A program made the position numbers and the translations under genes. From Gammaproteobacteria bacterium (GTDB taxonomy: Bacteria > Pseudomonadota > Gammaproteobacteria > UWMA-0217): DNA of 64,000 nucleotides. Numbering within the stretch: position 1 is the first letter of the stretch; every line of letters starts with the position of its first letter. The stretch spans positions 1,071 through 65,070 of the forward strand of contig JALWKV010000002.1 in the NCBI GenBank assembly GCA_027081275.1. The letters run 5' to 3'. The notes under the pieces were generated by a model, which was not told where the DNA came from, made no database searches, and saw only the letters and a program-made list of their open reading frames with translations. Of this stretch, positions 651-64,000 are shown one piece after another.

Positions 651-933
651 AGAGACTGTTGCAAACACCCTCTCCCCACCGGGGAGAGGGTTTGGGAGAG
701 GGGGTAAAGCACTGTTTTCATCCTCTCTCCACCCCTCTCCATCAGAGGTTGACGCAAAAGTGATAACTTTGCGGCAACCTCACGCAGCACAAGGATGTGC
801 TGCCAGAAACAACGACAATAAGTTGTTGTTTCTGTGAGAAAAGGAAGAATCGCACTTTTTCCTTTTCGTGTATCGCAAAATCCTGGACAAACTTTTGCGA
901 CACCCTCTCAAGGAAGAGGGAGTTTTTCGAGAC
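651..933. repeat. Mosaic intergenic repeat (modules A+B), hairpin-rich and MITE-like, flanked by the 9-bp direct repeat CTCTTGATA (642-650 and 934-942)
   Basis: It contains ccctctcccc..ggggagaggg hairpins and a gtcgcaaaag...cttttgcgac module. It is ~85-90% identical to segments at 3671-3830 and 46781-46935. Confidence 0.6.
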
Positions 934-2899: not shown

Positions 2900-3490
2900 A
2901 TGAAACATCTCAAATATCTTGGCGCGGCGCTGTGCCTGCTTCCTGTTCTGCTGCATGCGGACTGGTACCCCTTTGGCGACGATGACAGCAGTTACGAATA
3001 CTGGGACGGCGCCACCTACGGCCAGGGCCAGGGCTATGGCGAGGGTTACGGTTATGGCTATGGTGACAGCCGCTATCGTGGCGACGGGCGTGGCCGCGGT
3101 GATTCGGCCTTTGGTTCCATGTCCGATGCGATGAGCGACTTCATGACCAACGGCGTCGGCGACATCTTTGGCGATATCGAGCTGGACTTCGAACTGAAGG
3201 CCCGCGCCCGCGGCAAGGGCAGCGGTTCCGGCAGGGCGCGTGGCAAGAGCGACTCCCGCGCCGAGTACTACAGCAGCGGCTCGGGCTACGGTGGCTATCT
3301 TGGGGAGTACTACGGCGAGGGCGCCGGAACGGGCTATGGCAGCGGCATCGAATACTACGACGGCGGCTGGGAGGGGTACGGCTACTCCGATGGTTACGAA
3401 GGCGGCTACTATCCCTATGGCGTCGATCCCGCCTGGGGTTATGGCTATGTTCCGCCGTATTACCAGTCATATGGTTACCTGCCGTACTAG
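2900..3490 (+). CDS. secreted Gly/Tyr-rich low-complexity protein (GYG / YGxG repeats), unknown function
   Basis: It has an N-terminal signal peptide (MKHLKYLGAALCLLPVLLHA), and about half of the mature protein is Gly or Tyr (GYGEGYGYGYGD, YGGYLGEYYGEGAGTGYGSG, a C-terminal YYQSYGYLPY). A GGAGG ribosome-binding site lies 7 nt upstream, and only 15 bp separate it from the radC stop. Confidence 0.6.
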   Translation: MKHLKYLGAALCLLPVLLHADWYPFGDDDSSYEYWDGATYGQGQGYGEGYGYGYGDSRYRGDGRGRGDSAFGSMSDAMSDFMTNGVGDIFGDIELDFELKARARGKGSGSGRARGKSDSRAEYYSSGSGYGGYLGEYYGEGAGTGYGSGIEYYDGGWEGYGYSDGYEGGYYPYGVDPAWGYGYVPPYYQSYGYLPY

Positions 3491-3667
3491 CCCGGATTTC
3501 TCACCACCCTTCTACTGCGACGTTCCAATGGCGCGCCCTGGCCGGTTTTCGCTCGGTCGGAGTGCTCGACATAGTGTCGGCTATGCCTGCGCGCTCCTCG
3601 GTCGTGAAAGCCACCCATGCCGCACCCTTGATCTGTCTCGCTACGAACGGTGGTGAGAAATGCGGGG
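3491..3667 (+). mobile_element. MITE-like element family C, copy 1 (~177 bp, terminal inverted repeats CCCGSATTTCTCACCACC)
   Basis: The terminal inverted repeats are cccggatttctcaccaccc ... ggtggtgagaaatgcgggg. It is ~95% identical to an inverted copy at 38733-38916. It begins immediately after the TAG stop of the upstream gene. Confidence 0.65.
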
Positions 3668-3670
3668 TAG

Positions 3671-3830
3671 AGGCTGTCGCAAAAGCGGTAGCTTTGCGGC
3701 AACCTCGCGCAGCACAGGGATGTGCTGCCAGAAACAACGACAATAAGTCGTTGTTTCTGTGAGAAAAGGGAAAATCGCACTTTTTTCGCGTGTCGCAAAC
3801 GTCCTGGATGGACTTTTGCGACACCCTCCA
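3671..3830. repeat. Repeat module B copy (gtcgcaaaag ... ctgccagaaacaacgacaataagtYgttgtttctg hairpin ... cttttgcgac)
   Basis: It is nearly identical to positions ~765-915 within the repeat at 651-933. Confidence 0.55.
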
Positions 3831-8513: not shown

Positions 8514-10625
8514 TCAGTGGCCGGTGGGCTTGCTGGCCGTGCTGGAGGCGATCGCCAGGCTGTTGGCCTGCATGTTGCCGTTGCCGGATGACATGTTCAC
8601 GCCGATGTTGCCGCTGGCGCCGGACAGCGCATTGCCGCCCAGTACGACCCGGTTGACGGCGTTGTCGACGAGGATGTGCGTCTTGTAGGTAACGGTGCCC
8701 GAGACTTCCGTGGCCAGATTGATGTCAGACATCTCTTCGAAGCTCAGCGTGCCATTTTCGCTGCCGTTGCTGGAGGCGTTGACACTGCCGTTGATCTTGC
8801 CCGATTCACTCCCCGCGTACTTGCCGGAGGAGCTGGCCTGGGTCGAACCTGCGGCCTGGCCCTGGTAGCTTCCTTCCGCCTTGGCCTTCAGCTCGCCTTT
8901 TTCGTTGCCGCGATACTCGCCGGCCTCTCGTCCCTTGTACACACCTTGGGAGACTGCAGCGGTTTTACCCGCTTCCTCCCCCTGGTAGTAGCCTTCGTTC
9001 GTGGTTCTGAGCTTGCCCTGCTCGGTCCCCGCGAACTTGCCGGACTCCTTGCCCTCGTAGATGCCCTTGATTGTGGCCGAGGTGCTGCCTTCTTCCCTGC
9101 CTCGATAACGACCCTGGCTCGTCGCCCGGGTCTCGCCACTGGCGTCGCCGCGGAATTTGCCGCTTTCGCTGCCTTCATACTCGCCGACAGAGAGCGCTGC
9201 CGTGACGCCCACTTCGCCACCGCTGTAGCTGCCACTGCTGGTGCCGCTGTATGCGCCGGTCTCGCCACCGGTGATCTGTCCTGAAGCGTTGCCTTCATAG
9301 CTGCCGTTGGATGTCCCCTCGTAGGTGCCTTTTTCTTTCATCACGGTGATGCCGACGACAGGCAGCTTGTGTTTTCCTTTGTAGTTGCCGCTCTGCTCGG
9401 CACTTGTGGTGCCGGATTCGGTGCCGTTGTAGGAGGCCGCTATTTCGCCGTTGTAGAAGCCGCTGGTCTGGCTCTGGGTCGTTCCCGCCTCGACGCCGAT
9501 GTAACCACCGATCGATGCGGCTTCCGTGGTGCCTTCCTGCTCGCCTTCGTAGGTGCCGTTGATGGTGCCCTTGTAGCTGCCCGCGATGTGCGCCTGCGTA
9601 TTGCCGCGTGCCACGCCCTCGTAGTTGCCTGTCGACTTGGCGGCGGTCTTGCCGTAGCTCTCACCGTTGTATTCGCCTTGCAGTCTTCCAGCGTATTCGC
9701 CGGTGCTGTGCCCCGCGGTTCGTCCGCCGGTCTCACCCGCGTAGATGCCCAGCGAGATCCCTGCTGTCGCACCCTCCGCCTGACCGTTGTAGCGGCCCGC
9801 TTCCTGGCCCTGGTACGCGCCGGCGATGTTGGCGGTGGTTGTACCTTTCTCGGCGCCCTTGTAGCTGCCTGTCAGCTGCGCCGACGTGGCGCCGCTCGCG
9901 CTGCCGCTGTAGTTGGCGTTCACGCTGCCGTTGATATTCGCGTTGGTCTGACCGGCGTAGCTGCCCTTGCCAACGCCCCTGGAGGTACCGTTCGATTCGC
10001 CCTTGAGTTCGATCGTGGTGGAATCGGAGACGACGTCGTAGCGACCTTCGGTGGTGACCGAGTTGCCGATTGACTCCTGATGGACGCCGGCGGAAGCCGC
10101 CACTGGTCCGGTTGAGGAGACCGATACGGCAAAATCGTTCTTTTGCAGATTGAAATTGCCGGAAGCGATGTTGGCGCCGACGTTGCCGCTAACGTTGCTG
10201 ATGGCGTAACCATCGAGCCATGCCTCATTGCGACTGCCCGAGCTGGAAAACCTGTTGCCGTTGATGCGCTGCTCGACGAAAACCTCGGCCGTCGGGTCGC
10301 CGAAGACAAAGGACGCATCGCTGTCGGACGTGGCGATGGCAGCGGCGTTGGCCTGCATGTTGTTGTCGCCCGAGGAAATGTTCACGCCCATGTTGCCGGA
10401 GGTATCCTTCATAGCGTTCTCGTTGAGCGACGACTGGTTGTCGGCTGACTTGACGACAATGGCGTTGCCTTCGGCTGCCTGCCTATCGGAGACCGATGCC
10501 ATTGCCTGGGCCGCGACGGTATTGCCGTTTTGTGCCGGCGTCGTTTCGGTCGCAAGCAGCGGGGTGCTCGTGATGCATGCGGTGACTGCGACACAGATTG
10601 CAGTTTTCTTGTATTGGATTTTCAT
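8514..10625 (-). CDS. fapC: FapC-like amyloid major subunit with a greatly expanded repetitive linker (703 aa)
   Basis: After the signal peptide there are two N-terminal Fap repeats (SGNMGVNISSGDNNMQANAAAIA and SGNVGANIASGNFNLQKNDFAVS) and one C-terminal Fap repeat (SGNIGVNMSSGNGNMQANSLAIAS). They are separated by ~450 aa of 11-residue GxYxGxxxGxx repeats. The ATG at 10625 has a GGGAGAAGAGAG ribosome-binding site, whereas the ORF-track start at 10643 is TTG. Confidence 0.8.
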   Translation of the reverse strand: MKIQYKKTAICVAVTACITSTPLLATETTPAQNGNTVAAQAMASVSDRQAAEGNAIVVKSADNQSSLNENAMKDTSGNMGVNISSGDNNMQANAAAIATSDSDASFVFGDPTAEVFVEQRINGNRFSSSGSRNEAWLDGYAISNVSGNVGANIASGNFNLQKNDFAVSVSSTGPVAASAGVHQESIGNSVTTEGRYDVVSDSTTIELKGESNGTSRGVGKGSYAGQTNANINGSVNANYSGSASGATSAQLTGSYKGAEKGTTTANIAGAYQGQEAGRYNGQAEGATAGISLGIYAGETGGRTAGHSTGEYAGRLQGEYNGESYGKTAAKSTGNYEGVARGNTQAHIAGSYKGTINGTYEGEQEGTTEAASIGGYIGVEAGTTQSQTSGFYNGEIAASYNGTESGTTSAEQSGNYKGKHKLPVVGITVMKEKGTYEGTSNGSYEGNASGQITGGETGAYSGTSSGSYSGGEVGVTAALSVGEYEGSESGKFRGDASGETRATSQGRYRGREEGSTSATIKGIYEGKESGKFAGTEQGKLRTTNEGYYQGEEAGKTAAVSQGVYKGREAGEYRGNEKGELKAKAEGSYQGQAAGSTQASSSGKYAGSESGKINGSVNASSNGSENGTLSFEEMSDINLATEVSGTVTYKTHILVDNAVNRVVLGGNALSGASGNIGVNMSSGNGNMQANSLAIASSTASKPTGH

Positions 10626-10654
10626 AAGACTCTCTTCTCCCAAGTGGATTGATG

Positions 10655-11314
10655 TTATGGAGTGGTTTGCATGAACACGCGGTTTTGCGTGACGTTGTGC
10701 ATCCCTGCTGCCTGGTTGAGCTGAAGCACGCCCTTGACGCCTCGGAAGGCCGTCTTGTCGACATGTGCGGTGCGAATGCCGCCGGATTTCCTGTCATTGG
10801 ACCGTCCGGATGCAGCGGCGACATCCAGTGAAGTCTGCGCCAGCAGATCATCGGTCAGCTCCGCCGGCAGTCTTTCATGTGAAATGGTGATGGCATTGCT
10901 TTCCAGATTGCCGGCGCCGCTGGCCTGGTTGATCGACAGTAGACCAACCGTGTTTTGAAATGCGTTTTCGCGGATGCTGGTGGTCAAGGCGTCGGCGGAT
11001 GTTGCGCCGGCCAGTGATGAAACCTGTCTGATGCTGGCTGTGGCCGGCCCCGAGCCGGCGCCTTCATTGATCGCGCGGACGTTGGCCTGCAGGTTGAAAT
11101 CTCCTGCTGCCTGGTTGATCCCGACGATCCCCTTGACATTACTGAGTGCGTTGTTGGTGATGATGGCGTCGCTGAGATGGCCGAAGTCTTCGGTAGCCGT
11201 CAGCGGCTGGGTCGTGCCGGCGAGCGCCAGCCCTATTGCCGAGGCGGTGAAGAAACGTCGAAACGGATATTCCGAAAATGGTATCCGCCTGTTCTGACTG
11301 GTCTTGCTGGACAT
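10655..11314 (-). CDS. fapB: FapB-like amyloid minor subunit / nucleator
   Basis: It has a signal peptide plus three Fap repeats (GIVGINQAAGDFNLQANVRAIN, VGLLSINQASGAGNLESNAITI, KGVLQLNQAAGMHNVTQNRVFM) matching the GxxGxNQAAGxxNxQxN consensus. It is the first gene of the operon, with a GGGAGGA ribosome-binding site. Confidence 0.75.
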   Translation of the reverse strand: MSSKTSQNRRIPFSEYPFRRFFTASAIGLALAGTTQPLTATEDFGHLSDAIITNNALSNVKGIVGINQAAGDFNLQANVRAINEGAGSGPATASIRQVSSLAGATSADALTTSIRENAFQNTVGLLSINQASGAGNLESNAITISHERLPAELTDDLLAQTSLDVAAASGRSNDRKSGGIRTAHVDKTAFRGVKGVLQLNQAAGMHNVTQNRVFMQTTP

Positions 11315-14714: not shown

Positions 14715-15770
14715 ATGTCGAAACGATTTCCCTACCTGATCGCCGCGGCCCGTTGTCTTCTTCAAGCTGTTCCCGTTCATCGCCTCATGCGCCCTCTCTA
14801 CGGTGGAATCGGCACCATTTTCATGCTGCATCGTGTGCGGCCGCTGAGCGCGGAACCCCGTCTGCCTGACAATGCCCGGTTGGAAGTCTCGCCGGCGTTT
14901 CTGGCGTCGCTTGTCGATTTTGTTGTCGATACCGGTTTCGATGTGGTGTCGCTCGACGAGGCGCATGCGCGACTGGTTGGAAAATCTGACGGTAGACGTT
15001 TTGTCTGCTTTACCTTCGATGATGGTTACGCGGACAACTATGAATATGCTTACCCCGTTTTTCGTGAACGTGGCCTGCCGTTCGCGGTGTACGTTGCCTC
15101 GGGGTACATGAGCCGTTCCAGCATATTGTGGCACTGCATGCTGGAAAAGCTGCTGTTGCGCCATGATGAGATCCGCTACGAGCTGGATGGCGTCTCCCGA
15201 GTGGAGCGGGCGGTGACCATGGAGGAGAAGGAGGCGCTCTACGACCGTCTCTGCAACATCGTTATGGGGCTGCCGTCGGCGCGCTGGCCGGCGCTGTTCG
15301 ATTCGCTGTTCGACGATACGGGCATTCGGCCCGAGCAGTTCCATGCGGAGGTGATGGACTGGGATCAGGTGACGGCGCTTGCGCGGGATCCGCTGGTGAC
15401 CATCGGGGCGCACACGGTCAATCACTACAACCTGGCGCTACTGGAGGAGGCGCAGGCGCATTGGGAGATCGCCGAGTCGAAACGGATTCTCGAGCAGCGT
15501 ACCGGGCGCCCGGTCAGGCATTTCGCCTATCCATTCGGGCTCGCCGCCCATGCGGGTGAAAGGGAGTTTAGACTGGTCGAGTCCTGCGGTTTCGACACGG
15601 CGACGACGACCCGTGAAGGCAATCTGTTCCCCGCCCACCGTGGGCATCTCCACTGCCTGCCGCGGATCGAGGTGACGGGGCGGCATCAGGATGTGGCTTT
15701 CGTTGACATGCGCCTGAGTGGCGTCGTCGCCCTGTGGCGGTATGGCCCGCAGCGGGTGGTCACGGCCTAG
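14715..15770 (+). CDS. polysaccharide deacetylase family protein (NodB homology, CE4)
   Basis: FTFDDGY ... HTVNHYNL ... YPFG motifs of the CE4 NodB domain are present. Confidence 0.75.
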   Translation: MSKRFPYLIAAARCLLQAVPVHRLMRPLYGGIGTIFMLHRVRPLSAEPRLPDNARLEVSPAFLASLVDFVVDTGFDVVSLDEAHARLVGKSDGRRFVCFTFDDGYADNYEYAYPVFRERGLPFAVYVASGYMSRSSILWHCMLEKLLLRHDEIRYELDGVSRVERAVTMEEKEALYDRLCNIVMGLPSARWPALFDSLFDDTGIRPEQFHAEVMDWDQVTALARDPLVTIGAHTVNHYNLALLEEAQAHWEIAESKRILEQRTGRPVRHFAYPFGLAAHAGEREFRLVESCGFDTATTTREGNLFPAHRGHLHCLPRIEVTGRHQDVAFVDMRLSGVVALWRYGPQRVVTA

Positions 15771-15997
15771 ATCGTGCTTTTTGCCGGGGTGTCTCGTCCA
15801 GCCAGTCTGAGCGGGTTTCAACGTTTTGTTACGTTGGCCAAGCGCCATTGCGCCGGCGATGAAAAGGACGGATCGCCTCGCCGATGGTTCGGGCGCGGGC
15901 TCCGTGGCAGGCGATGAAGGGAGCAGAATCCGTTGACCCGTTCCTGGTCTGGCTGTATGATTCCGCCTCTTTTTTTCGATGAGTGTGTGGAGTCCTT

Positions 15998-16309
15998 ATG
16001 TACGCGGTAATCGCTACTGGTGGGAAACAGTACAGAGTATCCGAAGGTGACGTGATCCGTATCGAGACGTTGCCAGCGGAAGAGAGCGAGGAGATTACCT
16101 TCGACAAGGTGCTGCTCGTGGCCGACGGCGATGACGTCAACATTGGCGCCCCCTATGTCGAGGGTGGCAAGGTCAGCGCCATTGTCAATGGGCATGGCCG
16201 TGGCAAGAAGATCGAGATCATCAAGTTCAAGCGCCGGAAGCACCATCGCAAGCAGATGGGGCATCGCCAGAATTTCACCGAAGTGAAGATCACTGGCATC
16301 AGCGTTTGA
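15998..16309 (+). CDS. rplU: 50S ribosomal protein L21
   Basis: [23 protein letters not shown]... The ATG at 15998 is preferred over the track start. Confidence 0.9.
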
Positions 16310-16331
16310 TCCCGGCCGGTTTAGTTTCAGG

Positions 16332-16534
16332 GTAACTACTCAGCTCGTTCGGAAATACATCCGTGACTACTCAGGTTGCCCCTGGAATCCGACAGTTCAA
16401 GGCAGAATCGCACCGCCATCCATGGCTCCTTGCGAAATACAGCCCTTCCATGGGCATAAATGTGAGTTTACAAAGGTAAATGAGCATTTTCGAACGCAGA
16501 AATGGCGGATTTCAGGGGTGAGCTGAGTGGTCAC
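16332..16534 (+). mobile_element. MITE-like element family D, copy 1 (~31-bp terminal inverted repeats GTAACTRCTCAGMTYRCCYCTGARATCCGSC)
   Basis: It is inserted between rplU and rpmA. Its reverse complement matches 16882-17058 almost base for base. It carries a partial duplication of its own terminal inverted repeat at the 5' end. Confidence 0.65.
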
Positions 16535-16554
16535 GTTTCAAGAGGAATTAGCAG

Positions 16555-16818
16555 ATGGCACACAAGAAAGCTGGCGGCAGTACGCGCAACGGCCGCGATT
16601 CGATTTCCAAGCGCCTTGGCGTCAAGCGCTTTGGCGGTGAGGTTGTCAGGGCAGGCAACATTCTGGTGCGGCAGCGCGGCACCAAGTTCCACGCTGGCGA
16701 GAATGTCGGCTGTGGCAAGGACTACACGCTGTTTGCCAAGGTCGACGGCAAGGTCGTCTTCCGCACCAAGGGCATCAAGAACCGCAAGTATGTGAGTGTG
16801 GAGCCGCTGGCCTCCTGA
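16555..16818 (+). CDS. rpmA: 50S ribosomal protein L27
   Basis: [28 protein letters not shown]... An AAGAGGA ribosome-binding site is retained immediately after the end of the MITE. Confidence 0.95.
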
Positions 16819-16852
16819 TCACTGACGACCGAAAGGTTTCTCCTCACCAGCA

Positions 16853-16879
16853 AAGCCCCGCCGAGTGCGGGGCTTTTGC
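16853..16879 (+). terminator. rho-independent terminator after rpmA
   Basis: A GCCCCGC-cgagt-GCGGGGC hairpin is followed by TTTTG. Confidence 0.6.
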
Positions 16880-16881
16880 GT

Positions 16882-17058
16882 TGTAACTGCTCAGCTCACC
16901 TCTGAAATCCGCCATTTCTGCGTTCGAAAATGCTCATTTACCTTTGTAAACTCACATTTATGCCCATGGAAGGGCTGTATTTCGCAAGGAGCCATGGATG
17001 GCGGTGCGATTCTGCCCTGAACTGACGGATTTCAGAGGCAATCTGAGCAGTTGCAGGC
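16882..17058 (-). mobile_element. MITE-like element family D, copy 2 (inverted relative to copy 1)
   Basis: It is the reverse complement of 16359-16534 and lies between the rpmA terminator and obg. Confidence 0.65.
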
Positions 17059-17122
17059 GTATTTCTGAGGGAACCGAGTTGCTACTGCGTTACACTTTCC
17101 GCATCCGGCGCTTGTGTCGTGA

Positions 17123-19304
<2,182 letters not shown>

Positions 19305-19368
19305 TGTCGCCACAAGGACCTGTAGCGCCGGGCGCGCAGCGTGGAACGCCTCTTATACCGCGCCCATG

Positions 19369-38732: not shown

Positions 38733-38916
38733 CTAGCCCCGCATTTCTCGCCAGCATTCGTAGCGAGACGGCTCAAGGGTGCCGCATGGGTGGCTTTCAC
38801 GACCGAGGAGCGCGCAGGCATAGCCGACACTATGTCGAGCACTCCGACCGAGCGAAAACCGGCTGGCGCGCCATTGGAACGTCGCAGTAGAAGGGTGGTG
38901 AGAAAAGCGGGCTAGA
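38733..38916 (-). mobile_element. MITE-like element family C, copy 2 (inverted)
   Basis: It is the reverse complement of 3491-3667 (~95% identity), is flanked by CTAG on both sides, and starts 8 bp after the ccoP stop. Confidence 0.65.
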
Positions 38917-46780: not shown

Positions 46781-46935
46781 GTCGCAAAAGCCCTCCCCAC
46801 GGGGGAGAGGGTTTGGGAGAGGGGGAAAGCCATTGTTGTTCACCCTCTCCCTCATAGGGAGAGGGAGTTTTTCGATACCCTGTGTAGCGAGGGCTTGTGC
46901 GGCAACCTCGCCAGAGAGGTGGCTGTTGAGGCATC
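46781..46935. repeat. Mosaic intergenic repeat (module A with a module B fragment), copy 3
   Basis: ccctccccacgggggagagggtttgggagaggggg...accctctccctcatagggagagggagtttttcga matches 661-700 and 900-930 of the first copy. Confidence 0.55.
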
Positions 46936-47046
46936 CGCCTTGCGGGAGACGGAATCCGGCAGAAGACCGTTGGGATTGGCTATATTATCGAAGAGTCCCC
47001 GCGCCAATTTTGGGTGGACGGGGTGGTGACTTTCAGCTTGTACAGA

Positions 47047-47176
47047 AGCCTGCCTGTAACTGCTCAGATTGCCCCTGAGATCCGGCAGTTCAAGGCAGAA
47101 AATGTGAGTTTACAAATGTAAATGACCATTTTCGAACACAGAAATGGCGGATTTCAGGGGTGAGCTGAGTAGTTAC
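47047..47176 (+). mobile_element. MITE-like element family D, copy 3 (short variant lacking the ~55-bp central CCATGG-palindromic segment)
   Basis: It has the same terminal inverted repeats as 16332-16534 (gtaactgctcagattgcccctgagatccggc ... ggcggatttcaggggtgagctgagtagttac). Confidence 0.6.
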
Positions 47177-62447: not shown

Positions 62448-64000
62448 ATGGGTATAGAGCAACAAGGCACCCTGAACTCGAAAGAGCAGATCGATACGAC
62501 CGCCGAGAATGGCGGTGGCGCCCCTCTCACCGCGATCAACGACTGGATCGATGTTGCCTCCAATTCCGAGAACACGATCATCAATGTGCTGGCCAACGAC
62601 CTGCATGCCGGCGGAAACATTTCCATTGTCCGTTTCGAGCAGCCTGCCAACGGCGTCGTCGTCGACAATGGCAATGGCACTTTCAGCTATACCCCCAATC
62701 CCGGTTACGCCGGCAAGGATACCTTTACCTACGTTGTTGCCGACGACTACGGGAATGAATCTTCCGCGCTGGTGGAAATCTACGTGATCGGCAGCGGCAG
62801 CCAGCCGTCCGATGAGCAGAACGAGCAGCCGGAAAACGCCTTGCCGGATGCCAAGTGGGACGACGCCGTGACCGACGAAAACCAGCCTGTCACCATCGAC
62901 GTGCTGGCGAACGACAAGGATCCGGACGGCGATCCGATTTCCATTACCGGTTATACCCAGCCGCAAAATGGCAAGGTGGTGCAGAATGCCGATGGCTCCT
63001 TTACCTATATTCCCAACCCCGGCTTTCACGGCACCGATGTATTCGAATACTCCGTCACCGACGGCGTCAACTCCTGGGGGGATACCGCTCGGGTGACGAT
63101 CGAGGTCCGCGAAATCGGTCAGGCGCCGGTTGCGCGGGACGACAGCAGCGTTACCGATGAAAACGTTCCGGTGGTCATCGATGTGCTGGCCAACGATTCC
63201 GACCCCGATGGTGATCCGCTGACGGTCTCATCCGCAACGGCCGCGCATGGTTCGGTGCAGATCAATGCCGACGGGAAGCTGGTCTATACGCCGGATGACG
63301 GCTTTTCCGGTCAGGACAGCATCGTCTATGAAATTGTCGATCCCGATGGCAATACCGCGAACGCCACGGTTACCGTGACCGTGCGGGAAGGCAATGAAAC
63401 GCCGGTCGCGATTGGCGACAACGCCGAAGTCGAGCAGGATCAGGTGGTCGTCATCGATGCGCTGGCCAACGACAGTGATGCCGACGGCGATACGCTGTCG
63501 ATCGTCGATTATTCCCAGCCCCAACATGGCATGGTGGTGCAGGATGCTTCCGGCAATTTCGTCTATCGTCCGGAGGCTGGGTTCAGCGGCAGTGACTCGT
63601 TTACCTATGTCGTCAGCGACGGCCAGGGGGGCACGGATACCGCTACCGTGTCGATCAACGTGCTGCCTGTCGTTCCGCCCGAACCGGAAAACAACAGGCC
63701 TGATGCCGATACCGATGTCGCGTTCATCGATCAGGGGCAGCCGAGCATTATCGATGTGCTGGCCAATGACAGCGACCCGGATGGCGACAGTCTGACAGTC
63801 AGCCAGTTTTCCAGGCCGGCGCACGGCAGCGTCGAGCTGAATGACGACGGCACCTTCAGCTACCAGCCCGATGCCAATTTCTCCGGTGTCGATTTCTTTG
63901 AATACACCGTCGATGACGGCAACGGCGGTACCGATACGGCGCGCGTCTACATCTGCGTTCACGAAACCAACCGTGGGCCGGATGCCGATGATGACATGGC
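62448..64000 (+). CDS. large repetitive adhesin-like protein with tandem ~100-aa VCBS / cadherin-like repeats (5' part only; it continues past the window end)
   Basis: There are at least five tandem repeats, each with ...PVA.DD..VTDENQPV.IDVLANDSDPDGDPLTV.......HGSV...DG.F.Y.P..GFSG.DSF.Y.V.DG.GGTDTA.V.I.V... An RBS-like GGAGAAGAAGAA sits upstream and the GC3 codon bias is strong. The gene is absent from the ORF track because no stop codon is reached. Confidence 0.75.
   Translation, partial: MGIEQQGTLNSKEQIDTTAENGGGAPLTAINDWIDVASNSENTIINVLANDLHAGGNISIVRFEQPANGVVVDNGNGTFSYTPNPGYAGKDTFTYVVADDYGNESSALVEIYVIGSGSQPSDEQNEQPENALPDAKWDDAVTDENQPVTIDVLANDKDPDGDPISITGYTQPQNGKVVQNADGSFTYIPNPGFHGTDVFEYSVTDGVNSWGDTARVTIEVREIGQAPVARDDSSVTDENVPVVIDVLANDSDPDGDPLTVSSATAAHGSVQINADGKLVYTPDDGFSGQDSIVYEIVDPDGNTANATVTVTVREGNETPVAIGDNAEVEQDQVVVIDALANDSDADGDTLSIVDYSQPQHGMVVQDASGNFVYRPEAGFSGSDSFTYVVSDGQGGTDTATVSINVLPVVPPEPENNRPDADTDVAFIDQGQPSIIDVLANDSDPDGDSLTVSQFSRPAHGSVELNDDGTFSYQPDANFSGVDFFEYTVDDGNGGTDTARVYICVHETNRGPDADDDM

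What the first reader, a model, noticed from the sequence alone, without database searches (positions are those of the whole stretch)
16332..17058. rpmA (L27) bracketed by two inverted copies of MITE family D inside the rplU-rpmA-obg operon
Two ~180-200-bp elements with ~31-bp terminal inverted repeats sit in opposite orientation in the rplU-rpmA spacer (16332-16534) and the rpmA-obg spacer (16882-17058). The two spacers are normally tens of bp long. The rpmA ribosome-binding site (AAGAGGA) and a terminator hairpin (16853-16879) are preserved just outside the elements. The arrangement looks like a composite transposon around an essential ribosomal gene. The inverted pair can form a >170-bp stem in a polycistronic transcript, which could create a processing site or uncouple rpmA and obg expression from rplU.
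Basis: seen in the sequence. Interest (0 to 1): 0.55.

Follow-up and report, generated by a model that had tools for sequence, protein, structure and literature searches.

The report
Two mobile-repeat insertions flanking rpmA
Two copies of a small, non-coding mobile repeat landed separately on either side of the ribosomal protein L27 gene in one strain of an uncultured gammaproteobacterium; this is a clear but fairly ordinary case of transposon insertion polymorphism, not a transposon carrying the gene.

Summary
A 203-nt inverted repeat (16332-16534 and 16883-17085, 89% complementary) brackets rpmA. Element 2 ends at 17085, not 17058.

Close relatives (94-97% identical DNA, identical L27) provide empty sites:
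- Two contigs lack both insertions. Their spacers are 29 nt (rplU-rpmA) and 143 nt (rpmA-obg, with the terminator).
- Three contigs carry only the rpmA-obg copy.
- Only the window's strain, seen in two assemblies, also carries the rplU-rpmA copy.

Each copy has its own target-site duplication, so these are two sequential, independent insertions. They are not a composite transposon and not a local inverted duplication.

The family is large, with more than 150 loci in MAGs and metagenomes of several gammaproteobacterial lineages. Its usual form is a 121-nt palindromic core, a variable spacer and a third terminal repeat. Its 8-bp target duplications are far above a shifted control. No autonomous parent was found. 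GTAA termini plus 8-bp duplications point to IS66 as a lead only.

The rpmA ribosome-binding site and terminator survive. A ~200-bp long-range RNA duplex is the computed minimum-energy fold, but it needs read-through of the rpmA terminator. Any regulatory effect is inferred, not shown.

Verdict: an undescribed member of a known kind (MITE), of modest interest.

The parts
15933..15961 (+). Promoter-like site (TTGACC-17-TATGAT) upstream of rplU; candidate operon promoter
   Evidence: This is a consensus match only.
15998..16309 (+). rplU (ribosomal protein L21, 103 aa)
   Evidence: (PF00829)
16319..16323 (.). Five extra bases (GTTTA) at the left junction of copy 1; absent from empty sites and not explained by a simple 8-bp duplication
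   Evidence: the insertion is 216 nt = 203 + 8 + 5
16324..16331 (.). Left target-site duplication of copy 1 (GTTTCAGG)
   Evidence: 7 of 8 matches to the right copy
16332..16534 (-). MITE copy 1 (203 nt, family orientation on the minus strand). Outer terminal repeat 16332-16344, spacer 16345-16362, arms 16363-16398 and 16499-16534, extra 51-nt central module 16408-16458
   Evidence: The junction with rplU is reproduced in a second assembly, L076.
16535..16542 (.). Right target-site duplication of copy 1 (GTTTCAAG); overlaps the first 3 nt of the rpmA RBS
16540..16546 (+). rpmA ribosome-binding site AAGAGGA, 8 nt before the ATG; intact
   Evidence: Predicted accessibility is similar in the filled and empty alleles.
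16555..16818 (+). rpmA (ribosomal protein L27, 87 aa)
   Evidence: PF01016
16850..16879 (+). Intrinsic terminator-type hairpin after rpmA (GC stem, loop CGAGU, then UUUUGCGUU); also present in relatives with empty sites
   Evidence: -21.2 kcal/mol. The simple terminator scan did not list it.
16877..16882 (.). Left target duplication of copy 2 (TGCGTT, 6 bp retained)
   Evidence: the insertion is 209 nt = 203 + 6
16883..17085 (+). MITE copy 2 (203 nt, family orientation on the plus strand). Arms 16883-16918 and 17019-17054, 51-nt module 16959-17009, spacer 17055-17072, outer terminal repeat 17073-17085
   Evidence: The orthologous insertion is present in L002, L003 and L005.
17086..17091 (.). 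Right target duplication of copy 2 (TGCGTT)
17171..18193 (+). obg (GTPase Obg/CgtA, 340 aa), followed by proB at 18186-19304
   Evidence: PF01018, PF01926
47026..47176 (-). Third copy of the family in the window: canonical 121-nt core (47056-47176) plus a degenerate outer repeat; lacks the 51-nt module

Best explanation
rpmA is flanked by two independent, sequential insertions of one non-autonomous terminal-inverted-repeat element (a MITE). Some transposase supplied in trans made a staggered 8-bp cut at each target and joined the element's GTAAC...GTTAC ends to it.

The first insertion hit the distal U-tract of the rpmA terminator and is shared by several related strains. The second, younger one hit the 29-nt rplU-rpmA spacer at the edge of the rpmA RBS and is seen only in the window's strain. 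Both are most simply survivors of selection, because they left the RBS, the terminator stem and all coding sequence intact.

Inferred consequences:
- The rplU-rpmA mRNA now carries a 172-nt hairpin with a ~36-bp basal stem 5 nt upstream of the RBS. The distance from the rplU stop codon to the rpmA start grows from 29 to 245 nt. This is likely to loosen translational coupling and to create a double-strand-specific RNase target, as shown for Correia elements.
- Only the fraction of transcripts that reads through the rpmA terminator could form the ~200-bp duplex with copy 2.

Shown: element identity, boundaries, target duplications, order of insertion and family size. Inferred: the transposase, and any effect on RNA. 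The confidence given (0.85) is for the identity and insertion history; for the inferred RNA-level consequences I would put it at about 0.3.
For: - Empty and filled alleles in contigs that encode the identical L27 protein. L004 and L006 are empty at both sites, L002, L003 and L005 are filled only downstream of rpmA, and the window (= L001) is filled at both.
- A second assembly (L076, Logan SRR13622958) reproduces the rplU-copy 1 junction base for base and breaks inside the repeat.
- Copy 1 has its own 8-bp duplication, GTTTCAGG/GTTTCAAG. Copy 2 has TGCGTT/TGCGTT.
- Family-wide, 18 of 48 complete elements have perfect 8/8 duplications and 24 of 48 have at least 7/8. A control shifted by 10 nt never exceeds 5/8.
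The canonical anatomy comes from a 70-copy alignment.
- There is no coding capacity: no reading frame runs through the element, the longest ORF is 51 aa, and the ORF called in the public record has no Pfam hit.
- There is no Rfam family.
- The copy 1 region as RNA folds at -97.7 kcal/mol, z = -5.65.
- RNase III cleavage of transcripts carrying Correia elements, and the RNase E effect of ERIC, are documented (PMC10969869; PMC2649163).
Against: - No autonomous parent element was found: no long TIR pair with a matching duplication in about 150 loci, and no transposase next to truncated copies. There was no plasmid match and no viral-contig match.
- Both window junctions are slightly irregular, with 5 extra nt at copy 1 and 6 rather than 8 bp at copy 2.
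- There are no expression data, so the insertions may be entirely neutral.
- Predicted RBS accessibility hardly changes between the filled and empty alleles, which argues against a strong translational effect.
- All sequences are metagenome assemblies. Whether L076 comes from a different sample than the window is not known.
Confidence: 0.85

Rival explanations
1. The inverted pair is a selected regulatory device. In read-through transcripts the two copies pair into a ~200-bp duplex that loops out rpmA. RNase III cleaves the duplex and so uncouples obg (and rpmA) expression from rplU.
For: - The long-range duplex is the computed MFE: -501.5 kcal/mol, against -323.9 for the sum of local folds and -291 for shuffles.
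- No promoter-like site was found between rpmA and obg, so obg may depend on read-through.
- RNase III processing of MITE stems is documented in Neisseria.
Against: - A terminator-type hairpin with a U-tract lies between the copies.
- During transcription each copy can fold on itself first.
- The arrangement is confined to one strain, and relatives manage with no copy or one copy. That pattern fits a recent accident rather than a conserved device.
Confidence: 0.08
2. It is a composite transposon. The two elements and rpmA moved together as one unit into this locus, or now move as a unit.
For: Two inverted copies flank a gene, and both outward-facing ends are genuine family termini (the outer repeats at 16332 and 17085).
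Against: - rpmA is at the identical position between rplU and obg in relatives with no element or one element.
- Each copy has its own duplication, and the 8 nt outside the pair (GTTTCAGG and TGCGTTAC) do not match.
- The exact-protein look-up found no copy of this L27 anywhere other than between rplU and obg.
Confidence: 0.02
3. Copy 1 is a local inverted duplication or gene-conversion product of copy 2, not an independent transposition.
For: - The two copies are identical over element positions 20-134 (115 nt).
- They share two variants (positions 51 and 60) that differ from the orthologous copy 2 in L002, L003 and L005.
Against: - Copy 1 has its own 8-bp target duplication.
- The remaining 88 nt differ at 22 positions (25%).
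- Copy 1's outer spacer resembles a different family member, the proB-rpsT copy in L004, with 2 differences in 31 nt against 10 for copy 2 (my count on the alignment).
- The shared central variants may reflect a short conversion tract after insertion, or collapse of the repeat during metagenome assembly.
Confidence: 0.05
4. The copy 1 insertion is an assembly artefact: a mis-join at a repeat in a metagenome assembly.
For: The window is a metagenome scaffold, and repeats of this family break or confuse assemblies. L005 and L076 both end inside a copy.
Against: - The insertion is flanked on both sides by contiguous operon sequence with a target duplication.
- The left junction is identical in an assembly made with a different pipeline from a named sequencing run.
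Confidence: 0.03

Closest known systems
Correia repeat-enclosed elements (CREE/NEMIS) of Neisseria
   Same: Both are roughly 100-150-nt palindromic MITEs scattered in intergenic regions, often co-transcribed with neighbouring genes. The TIR stems of Correia elements in mRNA are RNase III substrates and alter expression (PMC2649163; PMC10969869). This is the best functional analogy for a hairpin placed between rplU and rpmA.
   Different: The sequence and hosts differ. Correia elements duplicate a TA dinucleotide (from memory), whereas this family makes 8-bp duplications. This family also has a third terminal repeat beyond a variable spacer. No promoter-like site was detected in the window copies.
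ERIC/IRU elements of enterobacteria and Yersinia
   Same: Both are imperfect palindromes of roughly 120-130 nt inside transcribed intergenic regions, with longer variants that carry internal insertions at fixed positions. ERIC can change mRNA decay in an orientation-dependent way through RNase E (PMC10969869).
   Different: No sequence relationship was seen. Here there are clear 8-bp target duplications and strain-level presence/absence. The taxonomic range is different (vent and sediment Gammaproteobacteria).
IS66-family insertion sequences (candidate source of the transposase)
   Same: IS66 termini begin with GTAA and the family makes 8-bp target duplications. The literature gives 20-30-bp IRs starting GTAAGCG with 8-bp DRs (PMC11946415).
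   Different: Only the first 4 nt match (GTAACTA here against GTAAGCG). No IS66-type transposase, or any other, was found bounded by these ends. The link is a lead, not a membership.
Cross-taxon conserved prokaryotic MITEs (survey in PMC11602168)
   Same: One MITE family is shared by distinct genera. Here the cores average 88% identity across MAGs labelled Piscirickettsiaceae, Sedimenticola, Chromatiales, Thiothrix, Methylococcales and Pseudomonadales.
   Different: That survey stresses MITEs shared between viruses and hosts. Here the viral-contig scan found none. I saw that paper's abstract only and did not check whether this family is in its catalogue.

Membership tests
Prokaryotic MITE (non-autonomous TIR element) | Terminal inverted repeats | tested here: met
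   The ~36-nt arms and the 12-13-nt GTAACTACTCAGC termini are conserved in 70 aligned copies.
Prokaryotic MITE (non-autonomous TIR element) | Target-site duplication of characteristic length | tested here: met
   The duplication is 8 bp: 18 of 48 perfect and 24 of 48 with at least 7/8, against a shifted-control maximum of 5/8. Window copy 1 scores 7/8. Copy 2 retains 6 bp.
Prokaryotic MITE (non-autonomous TIR element) | Small size and no transposase coding capacity | tested here: met
   Elements are 121-204 nt. No reading frame runs through the element and the longest ORF is 51 aa. The ORF called over the element in the public record has no Pfam hit.
Prokaryotic MITE (non-autonomous TIR element) | Many dispersed copies, with presence/absence polymorphism and clean empty sites | tested here: met
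   There are at least 67 genome loci and 96 metagenome stretches. Empty sites exist at both rpmA flanks in close relatives. A further polymorphic copy lies between proB and rpsT in L004.
Prokaryotic MITE (non-autonomous TIR element) | A cognate autonomous IS with the same ends | tested here: inconclusive
   None was found in about 150 fetched loci, plasmids or viral contigs. Whole genomes could not be searched.
Composite transposon carrying rpmA | One target duplication around the whole unit, and cargo that is foreign to the locus | tested here: not met
   The flanks outside the pair do not match, and each copy has its own duplication. rpmA occupies the same position in alleles with no element or one element.
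IS66-family derivative | IRs starting GTAAGCG | tested here: inconclusive
   The termini start GTAACTA, so only GTAA is shared (against PMC11946415).
IS66-family derivative | 8-bp target duplication | tested here: met
IS66-family derivative | An IS66-type transposase (TnpC, with TnpA/TnpB) in the same genomes, bounded by the same ends | not testable with these tools
None was seen in the fetched loci.
Correia/CREE | TA target duplication and the Neisseria-specific 26-bp TIR (from memory) | tested here: not met
   The duplication here is 8 bp. Sequence similarity to Correia was not tested directly. No Rfam family matched.

The most novel reading that the evidence does not exclude
The inverted MITE pair makes rpmA a switchable cassette. 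This could work at the RNA level: read-through transcripts form a ~200-bp duplex that RNase III cuts, uncoupling obg and rpmA from rplU. It could also work at the DNA level: recombination across the 115-nt identical tract inverts rpmA and creates L27-poor subpopulations. Separately, the family may be an orphan MITE that spreads between gammaproteobacterial orders in vent and sediment habitats using a transposase not yet identified.
Probability: 0.08. Interest if true: 0.6.

Novelty: new member of a known kind. Interest (0 to 1): 0.3.

Why it matters
This is a clean natural series of empty, single and double insertions. It shows a mobile repeat landing inside one of the most conserved and highly expressed gene clusters, rplU-rpmA-obg, without breaking the signals around it.

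That makes it a ready test case for how much secondary structure and spacing a ribosomal-protein operon tolerates. It also allows a test of whether MITE hairpins create RNA processing sites outside Neisseria and the enterobacteria.

The family itself appears to be undescribed. It is abundant, has a three-repeat end structure, and is shared at about 88% core identity among MAGs labelled as different gammaproteobacterial orders. That makes it useful as a marker of horizontal exchange and as a cause of assembly breaks in these metagenomes.

None of this changes current understanding of MITEs.

Tried and rejected
- **Rfam scan of 15500-17700 at E<=1.** Only sub-threshold chance hits, so this is not a known RNA family.
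- **Parent IS search.**
  - I looked for pairs of terminal 13-mers 260-6000 nt apart with matching 8-bp flanks in all fetched loci. There were none.
  - The one promising 2.9-kb pair, in L014, encloses parE, not a transposase.
  - ORFs next to truncated or solo ends are host genes.
- **Other collections.** blastn of the 152-nt consensus against 72,556 plasmids gave no match. The arm pattern in viral contigs gave 0.
- **Metagenome scan for this species' rpmA RBS region**, to enlarge the allele sample, gave 0 hits.
- **Literature search for the terminal sequence** returned only an unrelated eukaryotic paper.
- **Literature support for rplU-rpmA-obg co-transcription.** The paper I read had nothing usable. 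The statement that E. coli obgE is co-expressed with rplU-rpmA rests on my memory only.
- **Promoter and terminator scan** found no promoter-like site inside either element.
- **Gene conversion between the two copies.** I considered it, but the signal is only two shared variants and could be assembly collapse, so I kept it as a note.
- **Protein search with translated MITE arms** to catch a transposase overlapping an end. I did not run it, because the open frames are at most 28 aa in the consensus and the chance of success did not justify the cost.

Full report
**Observation**

The region encodes rplU (15998-16309), rpmA (16555-16818), obg (17171-18193) and proB (18186-19304), all on the plus strand. 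The Pfam assignments come from the public record of the same contig. The repeat finder reports one inverted pair, 16332-16534 and 16883-17085. It is 203 nt long, 89% complementary and 348 nt apart. The arm motif matches five times in the 64-kb window against 0.00 expected in shuffles, and a looser regex scan finds all six arms.

Element 2 extends to 17085. The inner inverted arms are about 36 nt. Each element has an additional 12-13-nt terminal repeat (GTAACTACTCAGC) lying outside one arm, beyond a roughly 18-nt spacer. A third, shorter copy lies at 47026-47176.

**Related strains give empty sites**

An exact-sequence look-up of the L27 protein returned six places.

| Locus | Relation to window | rplU-rpmA spacer | rpmA-obg spacer |
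|---|---|---|---|
| L001 | the window itself, 100% over 8264 nt | filled | filled |
| L003 | 94-97% identical overall | 29 nt, empty | filled, same insertion with the same flanks |
| L005 | as above | 29 nt, empty | filled, same insertion (contig ends inside it) |
| L002 | as above | 29 nt, empty | filled, but the copy lacks the 51-nt central segment |
| L004 | as above | 29 nt, empty | 143 nt, empty; terminator hairpin present |
| L006 | as above | 29 nt, empty | empty; terminator hairpin present (contig ends before obg) |

At the first spacer the five relatives read CCGGTTT|CAAGAGG, and the window has 216 extra bases. At the second spacer the empty alleles read CTTTTGCGTT|ACACTTTC.

A contig from a different assembly pipeline (L076, Logan, run SRR13622958) encodes the identical L21. 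It reproduces the rplU-copy 1 junction base for base and then stops inside the repeat. The simplest history is therefore: both sites empty, then insertion downstream of rpmA, then, in the window's lineage only, insertion upstream of rpmA.

**Boundaries and target duplications**

- Copy 2 is 203 nt, flanked by TGCGTT on each side (16877-16882 and 17086-17091), so 209 = 203 + 6.
- Copy 1 is 203 nt, flanked by GTTTCAGG (16324-16331) and GTTTCAAG (16535-16542). Five more unexplained bases, GTTTA (16319-16323), bring the total to 216 = 203 + 8 + 5.
- The right duplication of copy 1 overlaps the first three bases of the RBS AAGAGGA (16540-16546), which stays intact 8 nt before the ATG.
- Copy 2 entered the distal part of the terminator's U-tract (UUUUGCGUU|). 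The stem (16850-16879, -21.2 kcal/mol) and the proximal U's are unchanged.

**The family**

All were MAGs labelled Gammaproteobacteria, Piscirickettsiaceae, Sedimenticola, Chromatiales/Chromatiaceae, Thiothrix/Thiotrichaceae, Thiomicrorhabdus, Methylococcales or Pseudomonadales. A metagenome scan gave 96 more stretches, of which a few gut-metagenome hits are probably chance. Viral contigs gave none.

Aligning 70 copies with their flanks gives the canonical anatomy: GTAACTACTCAGC-type arm (36 nt), a centre of about 49 nt, and the opposite arm (36 nt). Together these form a 121-nt palindromic core, found in 41 of 73 copies. Then come a 10-20-nt variable spacer and a third terminal repeat, GCTGAGTAGTTAC. 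The total is about 142-152 nt.

For 48 complete elements, the 8 nt on the two sides match perfectly in 18 and at 7 or more positions in 24. A control shifted by 10 nt never exceeds 5 of 8. A few copies appear to be bounded by a duplication around the 121-nt core alone (my reading of the flanks, for example L045 with GGTGTTTG). So either the inner or the outer right end seems usable.

Cores average 88% identity across all MAGs. The window's third copy is 95% identical to copies in an unrelated MAG. Binning errors could inflate the apparent taxonomic range.

The window's two rpmA-flanking copies belong to a longer variant with a 51-nt module in the centre (16408-16458 and 16959-17009). That module is also seen, 48/51 identical, in a Sedimenticola MAG (L054), and in a diverged form in L035.

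The core shows 7 base pairs with compensatory double changes among 58 copies. This fits maintenance of the hairpin, but much of it is inherited within subfamilies.

**What it is not**

- *Not a known RNA family.* Rfam gave only sub-threshold chance hits.
- *Not coding.* No reading frame runs through the element and the longest ORF is 51 aa. The 54-aa ORF called over copy 2 in the public record has no Pfam hit.
- *Not a composite transposon in origin.* rpmA is native to this position, each copy has its own duplication, and the sequences outside the pair do not match.
- *Not a simple local inverted duplication.* Outside a 115-nt identical centre, the two copies differ at 22 of 88 positions. By my count on the alignment, copy 1's outer spacer is closer to a different family member, the proB-rpsT copy of L004, at 2 differences in 31 nt against 10 for copy 2.
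- *Unlikely to be an assembly artefact,* because two assemblies share the junction.

**Parent transposase**

None was found. No long pair of ends with matching flanks exists in about 150 loci. The 2.9-kb candidate in L014 encloses parE. Truncated copies adjoin host genes. Plasmids gave no hit.

GTAA termini and 8-bp duplications are the published signature of IS66 (IRs starting GTAAGCG, 8-bp DRs; PMC11946415). Only four bases agree, so this remains a lead.

**How it probably works**

Origin: staggered 8-bp cleavage and joining by a DDE-type transposase acting in trans. This is inferred from the duplications.

Consequence: the rplU-rpmA mRNA gains a strongly structured insert. The copy 1 region folds at -97.7 kcal/mol (z = -5.65), with the two arms forming the basal stem. 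The distance from the rplU stop codon to the rpmA start grows from 29 to 245 nt. Predicted accessibility of the RBS and start codon changes little. I therefore expect at most a loss of translational coupling, plus a new target for double-strand-specific RNases. Both effects have precedent in Correia and ERIC elements (PMC10969869; PMC2649163).

The 821-nt read-through RNA has an MFE of -501.5 kcal/mol with the two copies paired along their whole length. This compares with -323.9 for the two halves folded separately and -291 for shuffles. It can only form in transcripts that pass the terminator, and only after each copy has had the chance to fold on itself.

The only promoter-like site in 15700-17300 lies upstream of rplU (15933-15961). 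Some read-through into obg is therefore plausible. In E. coli obgE is reported to be co-expressed with rplU-rpmA; that is from my memory and was not verified here (searches gave nothing usable).

**Secondary observation**

The window's copy 2 differs from its ortholog in L003 at 7 of 203 positions, which is in line with the flanking divergence. At two of these (element positions 51 and 60) it matches the window's copy 1, against all orthologs and the family consensus. This could be a short gene-conversion tract between the inverted copies. It could equally be collapse of the repeat by the assembler. L002 carries the canonical 121-nt core at the same site where L003, L005 and the window carry the 172-nt core. 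That again suggests exchange between copies, or a precise deletion.

**Verdict**

The composite-transposon reading is rejected. The regulatory reading is untested and, given its confinement to one strain, unlikely to be a selected function. This is a new member of a known kind, of modest interest.

Noticed in passing
L004:2925-3076 against window 19305-19340: A relative carries a 152-nt copy of the same family between proB and rpsT. The window and L003 have a short unrelated stretch there instead. This is a third polymorphic site for the family within 4 kb.
   Followed up: partly
L002:4329-4480 against L003:1216-1418 and window 16883-17085: At the orthologous insertion site, L002 has the canonical core without the 51-nt module, while L003, L005 and the window have it. 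Either a precise deletion occurred or another copy converted this one.
   Followed up: partly
window 16914-16960 and 16457-16503 (element positions 51 and 60): The two window copies share two variants (GCTCATTTACC) that differ from the orthologs and the family consensus (GGTCATTTACA). This may be gene conversion between the inverted copies or collapse of the repeat during assembly.
   Followed up: partly
window 16319-16323: Five extra bases (GTTTA, resembling the start of the target GTTTCA) sit at the left junction of copy 1. They are not expected from a simple 8-bp duplication.
   Followed up: no
L002:1756-3386 and L005:806-2424 against window 15770-15900: Two relatives carry a methyltransferase gene and a glycosyltransferase gene between the polysaccharide deacetylase gene and rplU. 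The window lacks both.
   Followed up: no
window 672-860, 3487-3785, 38737-38915, 46793-46837: The window holds other dispersed repeat families: 117-nt direct repeats (744-860/3669-3785, 91%), a 135-nt inverted pair (3533-3667/38737-38871, 93%) with an adjoining 51-nt pair, and a 45-nt repeat (672-716/46793-46837). They are probably further MITE-like families.
   Followed up: no
window 8547-11132 and 62888-63800: These are degenerate repeats (60-80% identical) inside long coding regions: about 67-nt units at irregular spacing, and 58-nt units spaced about 280 nt apart that look like repeated Asp-rich domains. They are protein-domain repeats, not mobile elements.
   Followed up: no
L019:4993-5303; L033:792-943: In other MAGs, family copies sit in tandem or nested, a few nucleotides apart. 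This suggests a preference for inserting next to or into existing copies.
   Followed up: no
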